A DNA stretch of 24,000 nt from NCBI GenBank assembly GCA_038045365.1, contig JBBSYH010000016.1:6883-30882 (forward strand), given 5' to 3'. Shown in pieces: positions 1,449 through 10,147 of the stretch. Positions within the stretch are counted from its first letter, which is position 1; the number at the start of each line of letters is the position of its first letter. The notes below the pieces were generated by a model, which made no database searches, was not told where the DNA came from, and was given only the letters and a program-made list of their open reading frames with translations. The translations under genes and the position numbers were made by a program. The stretch is from Nanobdellota archaeon (GTDB lineage: Archaea > Nanobdellota > Nanobdellia > Pacearchaeales > GW2011-AR1).

Positions 1449-1961
1449 TTATATTTTAATCCAAGAGACTTCATAGTATAAAATATCTCCTTCGTCATCG
1501 ACAATGGCGAGCAAAAGATTTTTTTTAGAAGAGTGAGCAACTCTGTTTTTTGCTGTAAAATCGTGCCAATTAAGAACATCATGTTCGCGTGATGTGTATA
1601 ATACCCAACGCGCATGGGCAGTTCTGGGATTTTCGCCTTTATTATAGATTCTAAATTCTGCACCATATTTAAGGGCTGTTTTTAGGACATATCCTTTTTT
1701 TCTTAAGTCAGAGAAGACAGAGAGTTTAGTTTCTATTTTTGTATCTGTTTTTTTCACTTTTTTAAGCATGGATTCAAAGGATATTGGTTTTGCTTTGGAA
1801 AAAAGTTGCATTTTTTTTTCTTGCATTAAGTATAAAGCTTCAATTGGTGCGTATTCTATTCTGCTATTTTTCTTTTCTCCAAATGAAGATTTTTCATTTA
1901 GCGAGAATGAGTCCTGTGAAAGCGAGACAATTTTTTCTCCCAAGAAGTGTGCCATAATCAT
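1449..1961 (-). CDS. endA: tRNA-splicing endonuclease, short (homotetramer-type) EndA
   Basis: 170 aa. The C-terminal catalytic domain GYVLKTALKYGAEFRIYNKG...HARWVLY...HSSKKNLLLAIVDDEGDILYYEVSW matches the EndA pattern (G+.VK.G.K+G..FRVY...H...LV). CTTAAATA lies 21 nt upstream of the ATG at 1961. Confidence 0.88.
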   Translation of the reverse strand: MIMAHFLGEKIVSLSQDSFSLNEKSSFGEKKNSRIEYAPIEALYLMQEKKMQLFSKAKPISFESMLKKVKKTDTKIETKLSVFSDLRKKGYVLKTALKYGAEFRIYNKGENPRTAHARWVLYTSREHDVLNWHDFTAKNRVAHSSKKNLLLAIVDDEGDILYYEVSWIKI

Positions 1962-2038: not shown

Positions 2039-2392
2039 ATGAGCAATTATGGCGAATTTGAAGAGATAGAAACAGAAGGGAAAAAAGATAATGTGGAGGT
2101 TGGACAGCCATCTAGGGTCAGAGCACCTAAAAAAGATGAAATCATAGGCGTTATTATTCAAAGATATGGTGGGAACAGAATGGAAGTGTGTTCAACTGAT
2201 GGAAAAAGAAGAAATTGCAGAGTGCCTGGAAAATATAAGAGGGAACTTTGGCTTAGACCGAATGATATTGTTTTGATAAAACCATGGAAAGATGATGATG
2301 AAAAAGCAGACATTATTTTTAAATATAATCCTTCCGCTGTGAGTCAACTGAGGAAGAGAGGCATTCTTAACTTTATAAAAAATGAATTTTGA
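2039..2392 (+). CDS. eif1A: Translation initiation factor aIF-1A
   Basis: S1-like OB-fold signature: [69 protein letters not shown], the typical a/eIF1A core. Confidence 0.92.
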
Positions 2393-4829
2393 AGTAATTG
2401 AAAAAAAATGGCAGAAGAAATGGGAAGAGAAGAAAGTATTTTCAGCCAAAGAGGGAAAGAATAATAAATACTATGTTTTGGAGATGTTTCCTTATCCGAG
2501 CGCTGATTATTTGCATATGGGACATGTCAGGAATTATTCAATTGGGGATTTAATTGCAAGATATAAAAGAATGAAGGGATTTAATGTTCTTTATCCTATG
2601 GGATTTGATTCTTTTGGACTTCCTGCGGAAAATGCGGCAATAAAGGAAAAGATACATCCTAAAAAATATACAGAGCATGCAATAAAAACTATAAAAAAGT
2701 TGATGAAGGAGCTTGGGTTGAGCTATGATTGGGAGAGAGAAATAGTTACCTGCTATCCTGAATATTATAAGTGGAATCAGTGGATATTTTTGCAGATGCT
2801 TAAGAAAGGAATTGCTTACAGAAAGAAAGCTCCTGTTAATTGGTGTCCTAGCTGCAATACTGTTCTTGCAAATGAAGAGGTTATTGATGGAAAATGCTGG
2901 AGATGCGAGAGCGAGGCAATTATTGAGCATCTTGAGCAGTGGTTTTTGAAGATAACATCTTATTCAGATGAGCTTCTTCAGGGATTGGAGAAAATTGAAT
3001 GGCCTGAGAGAGTAAAAGAAATGCAGAGAAATTGGATTGGGAAAAGTGAAGGGACAAAGATTATTTTTCAGATTGAAAATTCTGAAAAGAAAATAGAAGT
3101 TTTTACAACCAGAACAGATACTCTATTTGGAGTGACTTTTTTGGTTTATTCTGCCCAGCATTCTGATGTTAAGGAAATTGTTTCAGGAAGCAAGTATGAG
3201 CAGGATTATGAAAAGTTCAGGAAAAAAGTTTCTGCTTCACAGAAGCTTGATTTGAGCAAAGATAAAGAAGGATTTTTTACAGGAAAATATGCTTTACATC
3301 CTTTGACTGGAGAGAAAATTCCAATATATGCTGCGAATTTTGTTGTTGCTGATTACGGGACAGGAGCAGTTATGGGTGTGCCTGCTCATGACCAGAGAGA
3401 TTTTGAGTTTGCTAAGAAGTATGGAATTCAGATAAAGAGGGTAATTAAACCAATGACTAATGTTCCTGGAGATGAAGCATATACTGGAACTGGTAAATTA
3501 ATTAATTCAGACAAGTTTAATGGATTGTTTAGTGAAGATGCAAAAGAGCGAATTACAAAAGAATTGGAAACAAAAGGAAAAGGAAAAAAAATTATCCAAT
3601 ATAAATTAAGAGACTGGCTGATTTCAAGACAGAGATATTGGGGGACGCCTATTCCTATTGTTTATTGTTTGGATTGCGGAATTGTTCCTGTGCCGGAAAA
3701 AGAATTGCCTGTTTTACTGCCTGAAAAAGTCAAGTTTTCAGGGAAAGGAAACCCACTTGAAACAAATAAAGAATTTGTCAGTGTGAAATGTCCGAAATGC
3801 GGTAAACTGGGCAGGCGAGAGACTGACACAATGGCTACTTTTTTTGATTCAAGCTGGTATTTCTTGAGATATTTGGATAATAAGAATGATAAAAAGATGT
3901 TTGATAAAAAAAATGCTGATTATTGGATGCCTGTTGAGCAGTATATAGGGGGAATTGAGCACGCCGTATTACATCTCCTTTATGCAAGATTTTTTACAAA
4001 GTTTTTGAGAGATTTGAAGTTAATAGAAGTTGATGAGCCTTTTATGAGATTGTTCAATCAAGGAATTGTTCATAAAAATGGCAAGAGAATGAGCAAGAGC
4101 AATGGAAATGCAGTAACTGCGGAAGAAGTTTCAAAGAAATATGGAATTGACAGCGCTAGATTGTTCCTGCTTTTTGTTTCTGGGTCTGATAAGGATATGG
4201 AATGGGATGAGCATGGAATAGAAGGAGCTTTTAGAGTGACGAATAAATTAATGAAACTTGCTGAAAAAGCAGGAGGTAAAAGTGATACTTTAATGGAGCA
4301 TAAATTGAATTTCACTTTGAGAGCGTTAGAGAACGGATATGAAAATTTTGAATTTAACAAAGGGCTTGTAAGATTTATGGAATTTGTTAATTATTTGAGC
4401 AATAGAAAGGAAATTCCAAGAGAAGTTTTGATTTCTTTGACATTGGCAATTTCTCCTGTCATGCCTCATGTTGCAGAGGAAATCTGGAGCAAAATTGGCG
4501 GGAAAGGGCTTGTTGCTGAGCAGAAATGGAGAGGATATGATGCTTCCAAGATAAATGAGAAAATAGAGAGTGTTGAGAAAGCAGTTGAAAAGACAATTGA
4601 CGATATTTTAAATGTACTAAAAATAATCAAGGAGAAGAAAGGTGAAGAGAGCGAGAAAATTTATTTATATACGCTTCCAAATGAAAAAGAATATTACGAT
4701 GCAGATGCTTTGAGCAAAAGAGTTGGGAAAGAAGTTATGGTTTTTGCTGTGAATGACAAGAAAAAATATGATCCTGAAGGGAAAGCAGGGAAAGCTAAGC
4801 CTGGAAAGCCAGGGATTTATGCAGATTAA
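2382..4829 (+). CDS. leuS: Leucyl-tRNA synthetase, bacterial-type core with an atypical C-terminal module
   Basis: HMGH ([21 protein letters not shown]), [13 protein letters not shown], the zinc/CP1 block [24 protein letters not shown], the editing block [12 protein letters not shown], and KMSKS ([10 protein letters not shown]). The match to E. coli LeuRS, as I recall it, is collinear. The gene overlaps aIF-1A by 11 nt. Confidence 0.95.
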
Positions 4830-6181: not shown

Positions 6182-8359
6182 CTAATTTTCCACAACAGCT
6201 TTTATCCTTCTAATTCCTGCAGATACGGATTCTTCTTTAATGATTTTGAAGTTTCCGATTTCTTTTGTGTTGCTGACATGAGGGCCTGTGCAGATTTCCT
6301 TGGAAAACCAACCGGATTTTTCTTTTTTATCTTCTATAGTGTAGACAGAAACAAGTTCAGGATATTTTGCACCGAATTCTGACTGCGCTCCTGAAGAAAG
6401 AGCATCTTGAAGAGGAATTTCTTCTCTAATTACGTTTAATCCAGAGGATATTTTTTCATTTACTAGAGATTCTACTTTTTTTATTTCTTCCGGAGTTAGT
6501 TTGCGTGGGAAATTGAAGTCAAATCTTAATCTTTCTGGAGTGATGTTAGAGCCTTTTTGCTTTATATCTTTGGAAAGAATTTTTCTGAGAACTTCGTTTA
6601 AAATATGGGTTGCAGTGTGTAAACAACGAGAAGTTTCTGATTCATCAGCTAAGCCAGATTTGAAAATTCCAGATGATGCTGTTCTGCTTAGGTCTTGATG
6701 GCGCCGGAATTCAGCATTATATTCTTCTAAATCAACTTTAATGCCTTTTTCGTCTGCAAGCTCTTCTGTTATTTCAATTGGAAAGCCATAGCTTTGAAAT
6801 AAAAGGAAAGCATCTTTGCCTGTAATTATACCCTTGTGTTCTTTTGCAATTTCATTGAATTTTTTGAGGCCTTTTTCTAATGTTAAATTAAAACGAAATT
6901 CTTCCTGAACTAATTCAGATTCTATGAATTTATAATTTCTATGCAATTCTTGGTAATCTGGATAGATAGAGAGAATAGCTTTTGCTATTTTTGATGTAAA
7001 GTTCTTTTTAATACCTAGAATTTTTCCATACCTGATTGCTCTTCTGATTAATCTTCTTAAAACATAACCTTGTCCTATATTAGATGATTTGATAGAGCGT
7101 TCATCTCCGAGAATGAAGACTGCTGCTTTAATATGGTCAGCTATGATGCGCATTGCTCTTGTTTCTTCTTTGTTTTTTTCATATTTTTTATTTGAAAGAG
7201 ATTCTATTTCTTTGATTATTGGTAAAAACAGAGATGTTTGATAATTATCTTGTAAGTTATTAAGAACTGCAAGTGTTCTTTCTACTCCCATGCCAGTGTC
7301 AACGTTTTTTTGCTTTAGCTGGAAAAATCCCAAGAGATTTTTTTCTACGAATTCCTTTATTGATTTTGTGTCTGTGTAATGTTTAGATAGAATATCTAAT
7401 CTTTGTGCAGTTTCAACGTTCTTTTTGTCATGGTCAAAATACATAACTTCTTCAGGTTTGAGGTTGAATTTCTTTAGTAGCTCTTTAAAATATTTTGGAT
7501 TATCTTTATTTATTTCATTTTCTTCTAATGAAAAAGCCTCCCAATTAGAATTCCTTCCTAGACTAGACTTTTTTACTAAATCTAGGCCTTTTTTTCTAAA
7601 CTTGTTTACAACTAATATATTGTGACTATTAAAGCTGTTGATTAAATTTAATAATTCTTGATTAAGATTAAAATCTTTATCATAAAGACAATGCATCCCA
7701 TCAACCAAGATTAATCTTTTATCTTTATTATATTCCATAAAAACATCATTCCAAATTTCTACCCAGTTTTCATCATCTGGATTGAATTTTTTTGGAGCTT
7801 TTGTTTTTCCTATCCAATAAAACATTTCTGTGTCAGGACCGCATGGACCATAAAGACCGGCAGGGCTCCACCAATTATTTTCTTTTGGTAGGAAAGAGAT
7901 ACTTTCTTTTGGAATACTGAGTTTCATCCAGGCTTTTGCTGATACCTCATCTTTGATAGCACTATTATCTCCTGCAAAACAAGAAACAACAAGCTTTTCT
8001 TTTGGTATTTTTAAGATTTTTGTGAGGAATTCAAAGCTCATTTTTATTGCTTCTTCTTTCCAATAATCTCCTAAACTCCAATTACCGAGCATTTCAAAGA
8101 ATGTGTGGTAAAAGGGATCGCCGACATTGTCGATGTCCTGCGTTCTAATGCATTTCTGGACAGAGACAAGGCGCTTTCCTAATGGGTGTTTTTGGCCTAA
8201 AAGGTAAGGGACAAGAGGATGCATGCCTGCGGTTGTAAAAAGGACAGTTGGGTCGTTTTCAGGGATTAGAGAAGAGGAAGGAATGTGCTTGTGATTCTTG
8301 CTTTTAAAGAAATCAATATATGCTTTGATGAGAGCTTGACGAGTTGTAATTTTCATCAT
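6182..8359 (-). CDS. alaS: Alanyl-tRNA synthetase, bacterial-type, with an internal HAD-like insertion, a minimal editing domain and no C-Ala domain
   Basis: DPTVLFTTAGM, HHTFFEMLGNWSLGDYWK, GPCGPDTEMFY, VEIWNDVFMEYN, VDTGMGVERT, ADHIKAA, GYVLRRLIRRA. Editing-site HxxxH (HTATH) and CxxxH (CTGPH) are present. I placed the start at the ATG at 8359 (MMKITT...) because TTTATTAA lies 21 nt upstream; the track's TTG at 8377 is less likely. Confidence 0.93.
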   Translation of the reverse strand: MMKITTRQALIKAYIDFFKSKNHKHIPSSSLIPENDPTVLFTTAGMHPLVPYLLGQKHPLGKRLVSVQKCIRTQDIDNVGDPFYHTFFEMLGNWSLGDYWKEEAIKMSFEFLTKILKIPKEKLVVSCFAGDNSAIKDEVSAKAWMKLSIPKESISFLPKENNWWSPAGLYGPCGPDTEMFYWIGKTKAPKKFNPDDENWVEIWNDVFMEYNKDKRLILVDGMHCLYDKDFNLNQELLNLINSFNSHNILVVNKFRKKGLDLVKKSSLGRNSNWEAFSLEENEINKDNPKYFKELLKKFNLKPEEVMYFDHDKKNVETAQRLDILSKHYTDTKSIKEFVEKNLLGFFQLKQKNVDTGMGVERTLAVLNNLQDNYQTSLFLPIIKEIESLSNKKYEKNKEETRAMRIIADHIKAAVFILGDERSIKSSNIGQGYVLRRLIRRAIRYGKILGIKKNFTSKIAKAILSIYPDYQELHRNYKFIESELVQEEFRFNLTLEKGLKKFNEIAKEHKGIITGKDAFLLFQSYGFPIEITEELADEKGIKVDLEEYNAEFRRHQDLSRTASSGIFKSGLADESETSRCLHTATHILNEVLRKILSKDIKQKGSNITPERLRFDFNFPRKLTPEEIKKVESLVNEKISSGLNVIREEIPLQDALSSGAQSEFGAKYPELVSVYTIEDKKEKSGWFSKEICTGPHVSNTKEIGNFKIIKEESVSAGIRRIKAVVEN

Positions 8360-8380
8360 TAAGATAAAGAAGAACAAGGG

Positions 8381-9397: not shown

Positions 9398-10147
9398 ATG
9401 CGTATTGAACTTCTAAAGTATATAGCTTCGATGTTGATAGGAGAAAGAGCAAAGAATATGGTAGACTTACTTTTTGGAAAGAAAAAGGTAAATGAATTTT
9501 TAATTGCAAAAAAACTTAATCTGACTATTAATCAGACACGGAACCTTCTTTACAAACTTGCAGATGAGGACTTTGTTAATTTTGTAAGAAAAAAGGACAG
9601 CAAAAAAGGAGGGTGGTATGTTTATTACTGGACACTAAATGAGGATAAAAGCCTCTTCAAGTTTAAAGATATAATAAAAAGAGAAATTGAAAATATGAAG
9701 AATCAATTAAATATTAAAAAGACAGAAAAATTTTATCATTGCCTGAATTGCGGAATTGAACTTAATGAAGAACACGCATTAATCCAGGAGTATACCTGTT
9801 TGGAATGTGGAGAGATAATGCAAATGAAAGACAACTCAAAAGAATTGATTAGTCTTGAAAAAGAAATTATGAAGAATGAAAAAATGCTTGAAGATGTAGA
9901 AGCAGAACTTGAAATTATAAGACAAAAAGTGGAAAAGGATAAGATAAGGAAGATGAAAGCAGATGAAAAGAGAAAAGCACAAGAAAAAGCAGCTAAAAAG
10001 AGAATGAGGAAAAGAGAAATGAAGAAAGCCAAAAATAAAGAAAGAGCAGATAAAAGGACAAATAAAAAAGCCAGGAAAGTTAAAAAGAAGAAGAAAATGA
10101 GGAAAAGAAAAATGAAGAAAGCCAAAAATAAAAAAAGGAAAAGATAA
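9398..10147 (+). CDS. tfe: Transcription factor E (TFE-alpha/TFIIE-alpha homologue) with a ~85-aa K/R-rich C-terminal extension
   Basis: Winged helix (VNEFLIAKKLNLTINQTRNLLYKLADEDFVNFVRKKDSKKGGWYVYYWTL) plus a zinc ribbon (CLNCG...CLECG). The tail after about residue 165 is almost pure K/R/E/A/M. Confidence 0.88.
   Translation: MRIELLKYIASMLIGERAKNMVDLLFGKKKVNEFLIAKKLNLTINQTRNLLYKLADEDFVNFVRKKDSKKGGWYVYYWTLNEDKSLFKFKDIIKREIENMKNQLNIKKTEKFYHCLNCGIELNEEHALIQEYTCLECGEIMQMKDNSKELISLEKEIMKNEKMLEDVEAELEIIRQKVEKDKIRKMKADEKRKAQEKAAKKRMRKREMKKAKNKERADKRTNKKARKVKKKKKMRKRKMKKAKNKKRKR
10004..10132 (+). repeat. Two in-frame 36-nt direct repeats (10004-10039 and 10097-10132, 1 mismatch) inside the tfe tail
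   Basis: atgaggaaaagaGaaatgaagaaagccaaaaataaa versus atgaggaaaagaAaaatgaagaaagccaaaaataaa, encoding MRKREMKKAKNK and MRKRKMKKAKNK, 93 nt apart. Confidence 0.9.

What the first reader, a model, noticed from the sequence alone, without database searches (positions are those of the whole stretch)
7334..7717. AlaRS catalytic core is interrupted by a ~128-aa degenerate HAD-like domain
The conserved blocks VEIWNDVFMEYNKDK and LLGFFQLKQKNVDTGMGVERT are only about 15 residues apart in E. coli AlaRS as I recall it. Here about 128 extra residues sit between them (RLILVDGMHCLYDK...KSIKEFVEKN). The insert reads like a capless HAD-superfamily fold. LILVDGMH sits at motif I, where the DG is kept but the nucleophile Asp position is Leu. 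ILVVN sits at motif II. KDNPKYFKELLKKFNLKPEEVMYFDHDKKNVETAQRLDI closely follows the classic HAD block 'KPdP..f...l..lgv.PeE.lfvGDs..Di.gA..aG' (motifs III/IV). Codon usage looks native (AGA Arg, AT-rich), so this is not a recent insertion. I do not know of a phosphatase-like, probably inactive module embedded in a class II aaRS active-site domain. It could be a new regulatory, tRNA-handling or partner-binding module.
Basis: partly seen in the sequence, partly recalled or inferred. Interest (0 to 1): 0.72.

Follow-up and report, generated by a model that had tools for sequence, protein, structure and literature searches.

The report
Phosphatase-fold domain nested inside alanyl-tRNA synthetase
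An archaeal alanyl-tRNA synthetase carries a complete, well-folded small phosphatase-type (HAD) domain at the tip of a hairpin in its catalytic core; this undescribed arrangement recurs in many tiny-celled archaea, and the same small domain also turns up fused to other translation proteins.

Summary
The ORF at 6182-8356 (-) is an intact bacterial-type "small" AlaRS in a Pacearchaeota-like DPANN archaeon. Residues 214-341 (window 7334-7717) are an extra 128 aa, placed where Aquifex AlaRS and insert-less sister sequences have a 2-3-residue hairpin tip. An independent assembly spans both junctions.

The insert is a capless HAD-superfamily domain (AF2 pLDDT 96; all top Foldseek hits are HAD; nearest are YihX-like HAD-IA variant 3 enzymes). 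It comes from an abundant family of free-standing ~127-aa proteins (over 3,000 clusters), mostly in CPR bacteria.

"Degenerate, probably inactive" is not supported. The Asp in LILVD aligns with the YihX nucleophile. That Asp, the motif III Lys and the motif IV Asp-His are essentially invariant across 56 AlaRS inserts that are only 34-78% identical. This subtype has lost only the motif II Thr. Like active YihX, it lacks Asp+2.

The feature is not unique: 57 of the 121 AlaRS sequences examined (the window plus its top 120 hits) carry it. They are poorly annotated, and I found no paper describing it. Insert and host phylogenies disagree.

The same mini-HAD also occurs nested in LeuRS (with NUDIX and Ham1) and fused to LysRS and uL22. 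Function is inferred, not shown. Most likely it is an autonomous phosphoryl-binding or hydrolase module carried by AlaRS.

The parts
6182..8356 (-). Complete AlaRS gene (724 aa plus stop). It is a bacterial-type 'small-AlaRS' lacking C-Ala. A second ATG lies at 8359, and the ORF listing extends the ORF to a TTG at 8377.
   Evidence: NF002436 scores 756.5 bits (cutoff 529). Foldseek aligns the full-length model to solved AlaRS catalytic fragments with TMt 0.82-0.88.
7718..8356 (-). N-terminal part of the class II catalytic domain (residues 1-213). It ends with the strand '...WVEIWNDVFMEYNKDK', the outgoing arm of the hairpin.
   Evidence: strand E198-213.
7334..7717 (-). Nested 128-aa capless HAD-fold domain (residues 214-341).
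   Evidence: (pLDDT 96.4, pTM 0.90).
7700..7702 (-). HAD motif I Asp (D219), at the nucleophile position. The following residues are Gly-Met, so there is no Asp+2.
   Evidence: Invariant in 49/49 and 56/56 sequences. Aligns with YihX D6. Lies at the end of beta1.
7604..7612 (-). HAD motif II position, 'VVN' (residues 249-251). The Thr/Ser is replaced by Val in this subtype. The Asn is conserved in 54/56 inserts.
   Evidence: Type A inserts and the CPR family keep 'VTN'.
7505..7507 (-). HAD motif III Lys (K284).
   Evidence: Invariant. Aligns with the YihX 'RKPE' Lys.
7430..7435 (-). HAD motif IV 'DH' (D308-H309), corresponding to YihX 'DD'.
   Evidence: D in 55/56 and H in 56/56 inserts. hhalign to YihX 'FFDDNADNIEGA'.
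7274..7333 (-). Return arm of the hairpin plus AlaRS motif 3 / alanine-pocket segment: 'LGFFQLKQKN-VDTGMGVERT' (residues 342-361).
   Evidence: D353, G355, G357 and R360 invariant; strand E342-357.
6185..6634 (-). AlaRS editing domain, with HTATH (residues 580-584) and CTGPH (residues 689-693) intact.
   Evidence: Pfam tRNA_SAD. Invariant H580, H584, C689 and H693.

Best explanation
The segment is a complete, independently folding, capless HAD-superfamily domain. It is a YihX-like subfamily IA variant 3 core that has lost its cap. It is nested at the tip of the long beta-hairpin immediately before motif 3 of an otherwise intact small-AlaRS in a Pacearchaeota-type DPANN archaeon. It derives from an abundant family of free-standing ~127-aa 'mini-HAD' proteins found in CPR bacteria and DPANN archaea.

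Shown: the fold, the homology, the exact insertion point, the integrity of the AlaRS aminoacylation and editing motifs, recurrence in many AlaRS, and strict conservation of the HAD Asp, Lys and Asp-His site.

Inferred: the protein is two enzymes in one chain. AlaRS keeps charging tRNA-Ala. The nested module keeps a working Mg2+/phosphoryl-binding site and most likely acts as a phosphohydrolase with an open, cap-less active site. The leading substrate guess is a nucleotide or other small phosphate ester or anhydride with a good leaving group, or else an RNA or protein end.

The hairpin lies in the motif 2-motif 3 region, where other class II synthetases also host extra domains. In that sense the module is architecturally comparable to the ProRS INS domain. 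Whether its chemistry is coupled to AlaRS substrates or products (AMP, PPi, adenylate analogues, the tRNA 3' end), or whether AlaRS is only a carrier, is open.
For: Insertion point and intact host. Independent assembly.

HAD fold: AF2 pLDDT 96.4. Foldseek hits include the sEH N-terminal phosphatase, YihX, MDP-1, HisB-N and 2pr7, all at probability 1.0. A profile search against PDB returns only HAD enzymes, best E = 6e-6. hhalign to YihX gives probability 92.8%. Relatives pass the curated TIGR01509 cutoff (P0002 33.9, P0279 39.4 against 29.4).

Active-site conservation: D and K are invariant in 49 family members. D219, K284 and H309 are 56/56, D308 is 55/56 and N251 is 54/56 in AlaRS inserts that are 34-78% identical to the window's. 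The N-terminus aligns with YihX without gaps.

Family size and free-standing forms: 817 representatives and 3,177 clusters at E<=1e-8. A free-standing archaeal copy is 55% identical.

Association with translation and nucleotide house-cleaning enzymes: LysRS with a C-terminal mini-HAD; LeuRS with NUDIX, Ham1 and mini-HAD in one uninterrupted ORF; other class I aaRS with GNAT and mini-HAD; uL22 fusions; operon neighbours NUDIX, GNAT, Ser-hydrolase and the ribosomal-protein operon.

In the full-length model the domain sits on 16-residue strands 198-213 and 342-357.
Against: No activity data exist. This subtype has lost the motif II Thr (Val250), has Met at Asp+2 and has His in place of the second motif IV Asp, so catalysis could be weak or altered. 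The window's own insert scores below curated HAD cutoffs (21 against 29.4 bits). Close sister AlaRS manage without the insert. One homologue (P0384) keeps a same-length insert that has lost the Lys and the Asp-His. So a purely structural role, or dispensability, cannot be excluded. The tools returned no coordinates or PAE, so I could not measure how the HAD site faces the AlaRS active site or the tRNA.
Confidence: 0.58

Rival explanations
1. Functionally coupled cis-acting module. The HAD site works on something AlaRS makes or binds. Candidates are the tRNA 3' end (removal of a 3'-phosphate or cyclic phosphate before charging), AMP or PPi, or toxic non-hydrolysable aminoacyl-adenylate mimics. 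This would be analogous to the hydrolytic INS domain nested in ProRS.
For: The same mini-HAD is joined to at least four aaRS families of both classes, and to uL22. It co-occurs in those aaRS with GNAT, Ser-hydrolase, NUDIX and Ham1 modules. The same genes sit next to the free-standing form. From general knowledge, cap-less HADs commonly take macromolecular or bulky substrates. The insertion lies between motifs 2 and 3, as do ProRS INS and the AspRS insertion domain (also general knowledge).
Against: All 120 listed top-scoring family members are free-standing proteins of about 125-155 aa. The position within other aaRS varies (internal, C-terminal, after the anticodon domain). Sister AlaRS lack the insert. 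No geometry was obtained.
Confidence: 0.2
2. Catalytically dead pseudo-enzyme kept as a structural, regulatory or protein-binding module. For example, it could be a shared docking domain that assembles synthetases or tethers them to ribosomes.
For: The motif II Thr is lost, Asp+2 is absent and motif IV reads DH rather than DD. P0384 retains a degenerate insert of the same length without the catalytic Lys or Asp-His. The same domain is present on several translation proteins.
Against: Asp, Lys and His are invariant, and the motif IV Asp nearly so, over 56 divergent inserts. A pure scaffold would not need this. About a quarter of AlaRS inserts keep all four motif residues. YihX, the nearest characterised enzyme, is active without Asp+2 (for the sequence; its activity is general knowledge).
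Confidence: 0.15
3. Selfish or mobile in-frame element (intein-like, homing cassette or mRNA intron) that targets this AlaRS site and is removed or merely tolerated.
For: The insert is patchily present or absent among AlaRS that are 74-79% identical. NJ trees require 17-20 state changes. Host and insert identities are uncorrelated (Spearman -0.05). There are clear rank flips: P0289 has host 66% and insert 78%, while P0279 has host 77% and insert 42%. Two insert types each occur in both host subtypes.
Against: There are no intein junction residues: Arg at the N-junction, Asn-Leu|Leu at the C-junction, and no Cys/Ser/Thr at the +1 position. There is no endonuclease. The junction RNA shows no bulge-helix-bulge-like pairing beyond shuffled controls. 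The reading frame and junction residues are conserved in all carriers. There are no viral relatives. The discordance can also arise from gene conversion with free-standing paralogues or from allelic recombination. The NJ trees are unbootstrapped.
Confidence: 0.05
4. Assembly or gene-calling artefact: a chimeric contig, or two genes read through.
For: One 511-bp, coverage-1 contig (L005) matches the insert at 99.7% but diverges 18 nt upstream of it.
Against: L094 independently spans both junctions. There are 57 homologous carriers from many samples. The ORF is uninterrupted. L005's odd end resembles the error-dense end also seen on L094.
Confidence: 0.01

Closest known systems
E. coli YihX (alpha-D-glucose-1-phosphate phosphatase; HAD subfamily IA variant 3; PDB 8pne, 8pno, 2b0c)
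   Same: It is the best curated sequence match (NF006991, E = 3.5e-7) and among the best structural matches (TMq 0.67-0.69). The N-terminus aligns without gaps (D6, D13, D15, F16 and N17 identical). Motif III/IV aligns by hhalign. Both lack Asp+2.
   Different: YihX has a ~75-residue helical cap between motif I and motif II, and the insert has none. YihX has Ser-Asn at motif II and Asp-Asp at motif IV. The window has Val-Asn and Asp-His. YihX is a free-standing 199-aa enzyme.
Cap-less (C0) HAD proteins: MDP-1 (1u7p, 2wm8), HisB N-terminal domain (2fpr), and the uncharacterised 137-aa Corynebacterium protein 2pr7
   Same: They share a small Rossmannoid HAD core without a cap. 2pr7 matches with TMq 0.71 / TMt 0.67.
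   Different: Sequence identity is only 10-15%. These proteins keep the canonical DxD motif. None is nested in another enzyme.
Free-standing ~127-aa 'HAD-IA family hydrolase' or 'hypothetical' proteins of Patescibacteria and DPANN
   Same: They are direct homologues: 26-55% identical over the full length, with the same invariant Asp, Lys and His. P0002 is an archaeal free-standing copy, 55% identical.
   Different: They are stand-alone genes. Most keep the motif II Thr ('VTN') and read 'DA(V/I)' at motif I. None is experimentally characterised as far as I could find.
Insertion domains of class II synthetases between motifs 2 and 3 (bacterial ProRS INS editing domain, bacterial AspRS insertion domain, HisRS insertion domain). 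This comparison is from general knowledge.
   Same: The topological place is the same: a whole domain nested in the catalytic core between motif 2 and motif 3. In ProRS the nested domain is a hydrolase.
   Different: The folds are unrelated. Those domains are fixed, family-wide features with known roles. The AlaRS insert is lineage-restricted, patchy and of unknown substrate.
'small-AlaRS' subgroup (bioRxiv 10.1101/2023.05.29.542759)
   Same: The host protein fits this description: catalytic, tRNA-recognition and editing domains only; bacterial-type; present in CPR, DPANN and Asgard through horizontal transfer.
   Different: In the passages I retrieved by a term search (DPANN, Candidate Phyla Radiation, insertion, HAD), that paper does not mention a nested HAD domain. 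I did not read it in full.

Membership tests
HAD superfamily | Rossmannoid alpha/beta core fold with strand beta1 ending in the catalytic Asp, followed by the squiggle/flap | tested here: met
   The AF2 model has pLDDT 96.4, five strands and a short hairpin after beta1. All 50 listed Foldseek PDB hits are HAD enzymes at probability 1.0.
HAD superfamily | Motif I nucleophile Asp | tested here: met
   D219 lies at the end of beta1, is invariant and aligns with YihX D6.
HAD superfamily | Motif I Asp+2 (general acid/base of phosphatases) | tested here: not met
   The residue is Met221 here and Val/Ile in the wider family. YihX also lacks it (Gly8).
HAD superfamily | Motif II Ser/Thr | tested here: not met
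   The residue is Val250 in the window and in most type G inserts. Thr/Ser is kept in type A inserts and in the CPR family.
HAD superfamily | Motif III Lys | tested here: met
   K284 is invariant and aligns to the YihX Lys.
HAD superfamily | Motif IV acidic pair (DD / DxxxD) | tested here: inconclusive
   D308 is present (55/56 inserts), but the second position is an invariant His309 instead of Asp.
HAD subfamily IA variant 3 (TIGR01509) | Score above the curated cutoff (29.4 bits) and a C1 helical cap | tested here: not met
   The window insert scores 21 bits. Relatives pass: P0002 33.9, P0164 32.4 and P0279 39.4. The cap is absent, since only 128 aa run from motif I to the C-terminus. The insert is therefore homologous to IA-v3 but is a cap-deleted derivative.
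HAD superfamily | Mg2+-dependent phosphoryl transfer through an aspartyl-phosphate intermediate | not testable with these tools
   This needs biochemistry.
Alanyl-tRNA synthetase (NF002436 / small-AlaRS) | Equivalog HMM score above the curated cutoff | tested here: met
   756.5 bits against a cutoff of 529, with the match split in two by the insert.
Alanyl-tRNA synthetase (NF002436 / small-AlaRS) | Class II catalytic residues and motif 3 (Arg of 'CIRT', 'VDTGMGVER') and editing-site HxxxH/CxxxH | tested here: met
   R71, D353, G355, G357, R360, H580, H584, C689 and H693 are present and invariant across 115 relatives. The model matches solved AlaRS fragments with TMt 0.82-0.88.
Alanyl-tRNA synthetase (NF002436 / small-AlaRS) | Alanylation of tRNA-Ala; being the genome's only AlaRS | not tested
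   No second small-AlaRS from the same assembly appears among the 80 genome loci listed, which include six insert-bearing ones. An archaeal-type AlaRS would not have been detected by that scan.
Intein | Cys/Ser at the N-junction, His-Asn at the C-terminus, and Cys/Ser/Thr as the first downstream residue | tested here: not met
   The junctions read 'KDK|RLILV' and 'VEKNL|LGFF'. The fold is HAD, not HINT.
Archaeal bulge-helix-bulge mRNA intron | The two junctions pair into a BHB motif | tested here: not met
   Cofolding of the junction regions gives -11.9 and -19.1 kcal/mol. Shuffled controls give -10.6 +/- 2.5 and -16.0 +/- 2.8. No BHB motif appears.

The most novel reading that the evidence does not exclude
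The AlaRS insert may be one instance of an unrecognised class of accessory enzymatic cassettes (mini-HAD, GNAT, NUDIX, Ham1, Ser-hydrolase) that CPR bacteria and DPANN archaea nest inside the catalytic bodies of several aminoacyl-tRNA synthetases. These cassettes may be exchanged between alleles. They would act in cis on synthetase-linked chemistry. Possible roles are destroying toxic aminoacyl-adenylate mimics, Ap4A or non-canonical nucleotides at the target enzyme, or healing phosphorylated tRNA 3' ends before charging.
Probability: 0.15. Interest if true: 0.85.

Novelty: new variant of a known kind. Interest (0 to 1): 0.66.

Why it matters
Recent AlaRS papers describe the enzyme as keeping one conserved prototype architecture throughout biology (abstracts listed). 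Here a whole second enzyme fold, with its catalytic residues under selection, sits inside the class II catalytic core. It does so in dozens of DPANN lineages, while close relatives lack it.

This offers three things. First, it is a natural experiment on how much an aaRS active-site domain can tolerate. Second, it gives a handle on an abundant uncharacterised mini-HAD family of organisms with ultra-small genomes. Third, because the same module (with NUDIX, Ham1 or GNAT) is nested in LeuRS and fused to LysRS and uL22, it may point to unknown accessory chemistry attached to translation in CPR and DPANN.

It also has a practical annotation consequence. These essential synthetases are currently named 'hypothetical', 'HAD-IA family hydrolase' or 'alanine--tRNA ligase-related protein'.

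Tried and rejected
Assembly chimera: rejected. L094 spans both junctions, and 57 homologous carriers exist.

L005 (511 bp, coverage 1) initially looked like a free-standing or rearranged copy sharing 18 nt of AlaRS sequence. Its upstream part has in-frame stops and no SBDS similarity. L094 from the same site also has an error-dense contig end. I treat L005 as a probable read or assembly artefact, unresolved.

Intein: rejected on junction residues and fold.

BHB mRNA intron: no junction pairing beyond shuffled controls.

Direct repeats at the junctions: there is a weak 'AATCT(C)TTGG' similarity in the window but not in L008. Not pursued.

Link to the split AlaRS of Nanoarchaeum: the alpha subunit alone aminoacylates (PMC11392972). 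I therefore infer that the split lies after the catalytic domain, at a different site.

Two-paralogue explanation for the interleaved tree: no genome in the 80 listed loci carries two small-AlaRS.

Viral origin: no relatives in IMG/VR.

Literature: five searches found no description of a HAD domain in AlaRS or of nested modules in CPR/DPANN synthetases.

My first automatic type-1/type-2 labelling of inserts was faulty and was redone.
Full report
OBSERVATION. The minus-strand ORF at 6182-8377 encodes an alanyl-tRNA synthetase. Its likely start is the ATG pair at 8356/8359, which gives 724 aa. Pfam tRNA-synt_2c and the NCBIfam equivalog NF002436 both match it in two pieces that break at profile position 217/218. 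NF002436 models a 595-aa short AlaRS and scores 756.5 bits against a cutoff of 529. Against the solved Aquifex enzyme (1riq), query residue 225 pairs with chain residue 210 and query 354 with chain 212, so about 128 residues have no counterpart. Sister proteins that are 74-79% identical in the host part read 'FMQYEKTKS-xx-YIPLKQKNVDTG' at this point. The extra segment therefore replaces a 2-3-residue hairpin tip.

An independent Hainich groundwater contig (L094, 3,777 bp) matches window 8045-4268 at 99.4%. It covers both junctions and the neighbouring BacA/UppP gene.

HOST AND ORGANISM. The window is archaeal. It encodes a tRNA-intron endonuclease, TFE-alpha and an ATP-dependent DNA ligase. 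The closest AlaRS relatives are labelled Pacearchaeota, Woesearchaeota or Nanoarchaeota. The synthetase itself is the bacterial-type 'small-AlaRS' (catalytic, tRNA-recognition and editing domains, no C-Ala). A 2023 preprint reports this form as horizontally transferred into DPANN (10.1101/2023.05.29.542759).

All diagnostic AlaRS residues are present and invariant across 115 relatives. These are the Arg of 'CIRT', 'VDTGMGVER', and the editing-site HTATH and CTGPH. A full-length AlphaFold model has mean pLDDT 89.9 and pTM 0.72. It superposes on solved AlaRS catalytic fragments with TM 0.82-0.88, normalised to the target. In that model the insert hangs on two 16-residue strands (198-213 and 342-357). 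It is therefore at the end of a long hairpin, not in the middle of the active site.

WHAT THE INSERT IS. Taken alone, the window's insert gives only sub-threshold HAD hits. They are restricted to motifs III and IV: NF006991/YihX E = 3.5e-7, and TIGR01509 21 bits against a cutoff of 29.4. Homologues settle the question.

An exhaustive profile search found 817 representative relatives. A second search found 3,177 clusters at E<=1e-8. The 120 best-scoring of these that are listed are free-standing proteins of 125-156 aa. Those that carry a name come from Patescibacteria and are called 'HAD-IA family hydrolase', 'HAD hydrolase-like' or 'hypothetical'. Several relatives pass the curated TIGR01509 cutoff. 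A 49-sequence profile hits only HAD enzymes in the PDB, and hhalign to E. coli YihX gives 92.8% probability.

With that alignment AlphaFold gives a pLDDT 96.4 / pTM 0.90 five-stranded Rossmannoid model. All 50 listed Foldseek matches are HAD proteins. They include the sEH N-terminal phosphatase, YihX, MDP-1, HisB-N and the 137-aa cap-less protein 2pr7. The domain has no cap.

CORRECTING THE ACTIVE-SITE READING. Three results place it at Asp219 instead.
- That Asp ends strand beta1 in the model.
- It is invariant in 49/49 family members and 56/56 AlaRS inserts.
- The insert N-terminus 'RLILVDGMHCLYDKDFN' aligns without gaps to YihX 'MLYIFDLGNVIVDIDFN', with D6, D13, D15, F16 and N17 identical.

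What is missing is Asp+2, which YihX also lacks. Across 56 AlaRS inserts that are only 34-78% identical to the window's, several positions are fixed. Asp219, Lys284 (motif III) and His309 are 56/56, Asp308 is 55/56 and Asn251 is 54/56.

The inserts fall into two types. Type G, which includes the window, reads 'DGM...VVN' and has lost the motif II Thr. Type A reads 'DA(I/V)...V(T/S)N' and keeps it, as does the CPR family. This pattern fits a maintained ligand-binding or catalytic site, not a decaying relic. One homologue (P0384) does carry a same-length insert that has lost the Lys and the Asp-His. So retention without catalysis is possible in at least one lineage.

DISTRIBUTION AND EVOLUTION. 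I examined 121 AlaRS sequences: the window plus its top 120 database hits. Of these, 57 carry the insert, always at the same hairpin. Six of the 80 species-representative genome loci also carry it, and no genome shows two small-AlaRS copies. The source names, where present, are 'hypothetical protein', 'alanine--tRNA ligase-related protein', 'HAD-IA family hydrolase' or 'alanyl-tRNA synthetase'.

Carriers and non-carriers interleave on NJ trees of the host part, with 17-20 parsimony changes. Host and insert identities are uncorrelated over 1,540 pairs (Spearman -0.05). There are clear rank flips. P0289 has host identity 66% and insert identity 78%. P0279 has host 77% and insert 42%. Both insert types occur in both host subtypes, defined by the co-varying W/T/M or G/F/G residues that flank the site.

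In an NJ tree of the domain, the AlaRS inserts form one group. The archaeal free-standing copies (P0002-P0006) are nested inside it, and the uL22-fused copies are sister to it. These trees are unbootstrapped. The pairwise flips are robust and imply one of three things: cassette exchange, gene conversion with free-standing paralogues, or repeated loss. Which one applies I could not decide.

Intein features are absent. The junction RNA forms no bulge-helix-bulge-like structure beyond shuffled controls. No viral relatives were found. GC3 of the insert is 22.8% against 26.8% for the rest of the gene, which is native-like.

WIDER CONTEXT. The same mini-HAD is joined to other translation proteins.
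- It is C-terminal on a LysRS (P0036).
- It is internal in LeuRS-type and other class I synthetases, together with GNAT, Ser-hydrolase, NUDIX and Ham1 modules (P0045, P0068, P0077, P0089, P0098, P0104).
- It is N-terminal on uL22 (P0011, P0012).

I checked one of these at the DNA level. P0089 is a single stop-free 1,349-codon ORF, with the mini-HAD placed between 'YWGEPFP' and 'LPLALP' of LeuRS.

Free-standing copies have suggestive neighbours. One lies next to NUDIX, overlapping it by 4 nt. One lies next to GNAT and a Ser-hydrolase, just downstream of a ribosomal-protein operon. One follows peptide deformylase. In archaea, one lies between SBDS and the exosome genes. Secondary HMM hits are to pyrimidine 5'-nucleotidase and YjjG-type nucleotidases.

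MECHANISM (INFERRED). My best reading is a two-enzymes-in-one protein. AlaRS is intact and presumably active. The nested cap-less HAD keeps a phosphoryl/Mg2+ site and most likely hydrolyses a phosphate ester or anhydride that does not need a general acid. A nucleotide-type substrate is the leading guess, given the NUDIX/Ham1 associations and the nearest families.

From general knowledge, the motif 2-motif 3 region is where class II synthetases tolerate nested domains (ProRS INS, AspRS insertion, HisRS insertion). The architecture therefore works like those, without being homologous to them.

Whether the chemistry is coupled to AlaRS cannot be decided here. The candidates are the tRNA 3' end, AMP or PPi, and adenylate mimics. 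The tools returned no coordinates, and there is no biochemistry. Three rivals remain at lower probability: a dead scaffold or docking module, a coupled cis-acting module, and a mobile cassette.

KNOWN OR NEW. The fold and the host are both known families. The sequences are in public databases with uninformative names. Five full-text searches found no description of a HAD domain nested in AlaRS, or of nested enzyme modules in CPR/DPANN synthetases. I class it as a new variant of a known kind: a domain-nested synthetase carrying a cap-deleted HAD-IA derivative. Interest is moderately high, mainly for three reasons: the active-site conservation, the patchy and discordant distribution, and the recurrence across several synthetases.

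Noticed in passing
L005:1-511 (matches window 7735-7347): A 511-bp, coverage-1 Hainich contig is 99.7% identical to the insert plus 18 nt of upstream AlaRS codons (EYNKDK), with a 1-bp deletion. Its first 123 nt are unrelated to AlaRS and carry in-frame stops. It is probably a noisy or chimeric contig end, since L094's end is also error-dense. A rearranged or escaped copy is not excluded.
   Followed up: partly
window 7751-7753 (W202) and 7289-7297 (T354-G355-M356); alignment A4: Residues flanking the insertion site co-vary as a set among small-AlaRS. 'EIWN...VDTGMG' alternates with 'EIGN...IDFGGG' (W/T/M against G/F/G). Both states occur with and without the insert and with both insert types, and they are scattered on the NJ tree (21 changes). 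This may be a compensating packing switch next to the alanine pocket, or evidence of recombination.
   Followed up: partly
L095:717-4766 (P0089); also P0045, P0068, P0077, P0098, P0104, P0036, P0011/P0012: Other translation proteins carry the same mini-HAD. P0089 is a 1,349-aa LeuRS with nested NUDIX, Ham1 and mini-HAD in one stop-free ORF. Class I synthetases carry GNAT +/- Ser-hydrolase plus mini-HAD. A LysRS has a C-terminal mini-HAD. uL22 has an N-terminal mini-HAD.
   Followed up: partly
L092:1703-4797; L093:4001-4929: Free-standing mini-HAD genes sit in small-enzyme clusters in CPR genomes. One cluster holds GNAT, Ser-hydrolase, mini-HAD and glyoxalase (plus APH and a nucleotidyltransferase) right after ribosomal protein genes. 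In another, mini-HAD overlaps a NUDIX gene by 4 nt. The same set of modules is found nested in LeuRS.
   Followed up: no
L001:6001-6384 (P0002): The archaeal free-standing copy, 55% identical to the insert, lies 1 nt downstream of the SBDS gene and just upstream of the Rrp4/Rrp41/Rrp42 exosome genes and RpoK, within the archaeal exosome/proteasome gene neighbourhood.
   Followed up: no
P0384 (713-aa Pacearchaeota AlaRS), residues ~213-340: It has an insert of the same length at the same site that the mini-HAD profile no longer detects. The motif III Lys and the motif IV Asp-His are gone ('...FPKTSEELENLF...ALFVSFGNTNAKLA...'). This is a degenerate derivative retained in place.
   Followed up: partly
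window 2382-4829 (+) and 6182-8356 (-): This archaeal window carries two bacterial-type synthetases close together. One is an 815-aa LeuRS with the bacterial-style editing domain (PF13603) and no nested modules. The other is the small-AlaRS. A tRNA-intron endonuclease gene lies at 1449-1961 (-).
   Followed up: no
window 9398-10147 (+): The TFE-alpha homologue ends in an extremely basic Lys/Arg-rich tail of ~70 residues with an internal repeat: 'KKRMRKREMKKAKNK...KKKMRKRKMKKAKNKKRKR'.
   Followed up: no
P0311 (868-aa AlaRS with insert), residues 1-145: It has an N-terminal extension of ~145 aa ahead of the AlaRS start, containing an 'RRLRHNINYYGY' stretch reminiscent of an Rx4H HEPN-type motif. 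This could be a real fusion or a gene-call artefact.
   Followed up: no
window 7334-7717: The insert is more AT-rich than the rest of the gene (GC 26.5% against 34.7%), although GC3 is similar (22.8% against 26.8%). The difference is probably due to amino-acid composition (rich in Lys, Asn, Ile and Phe).
   Followed up: partly
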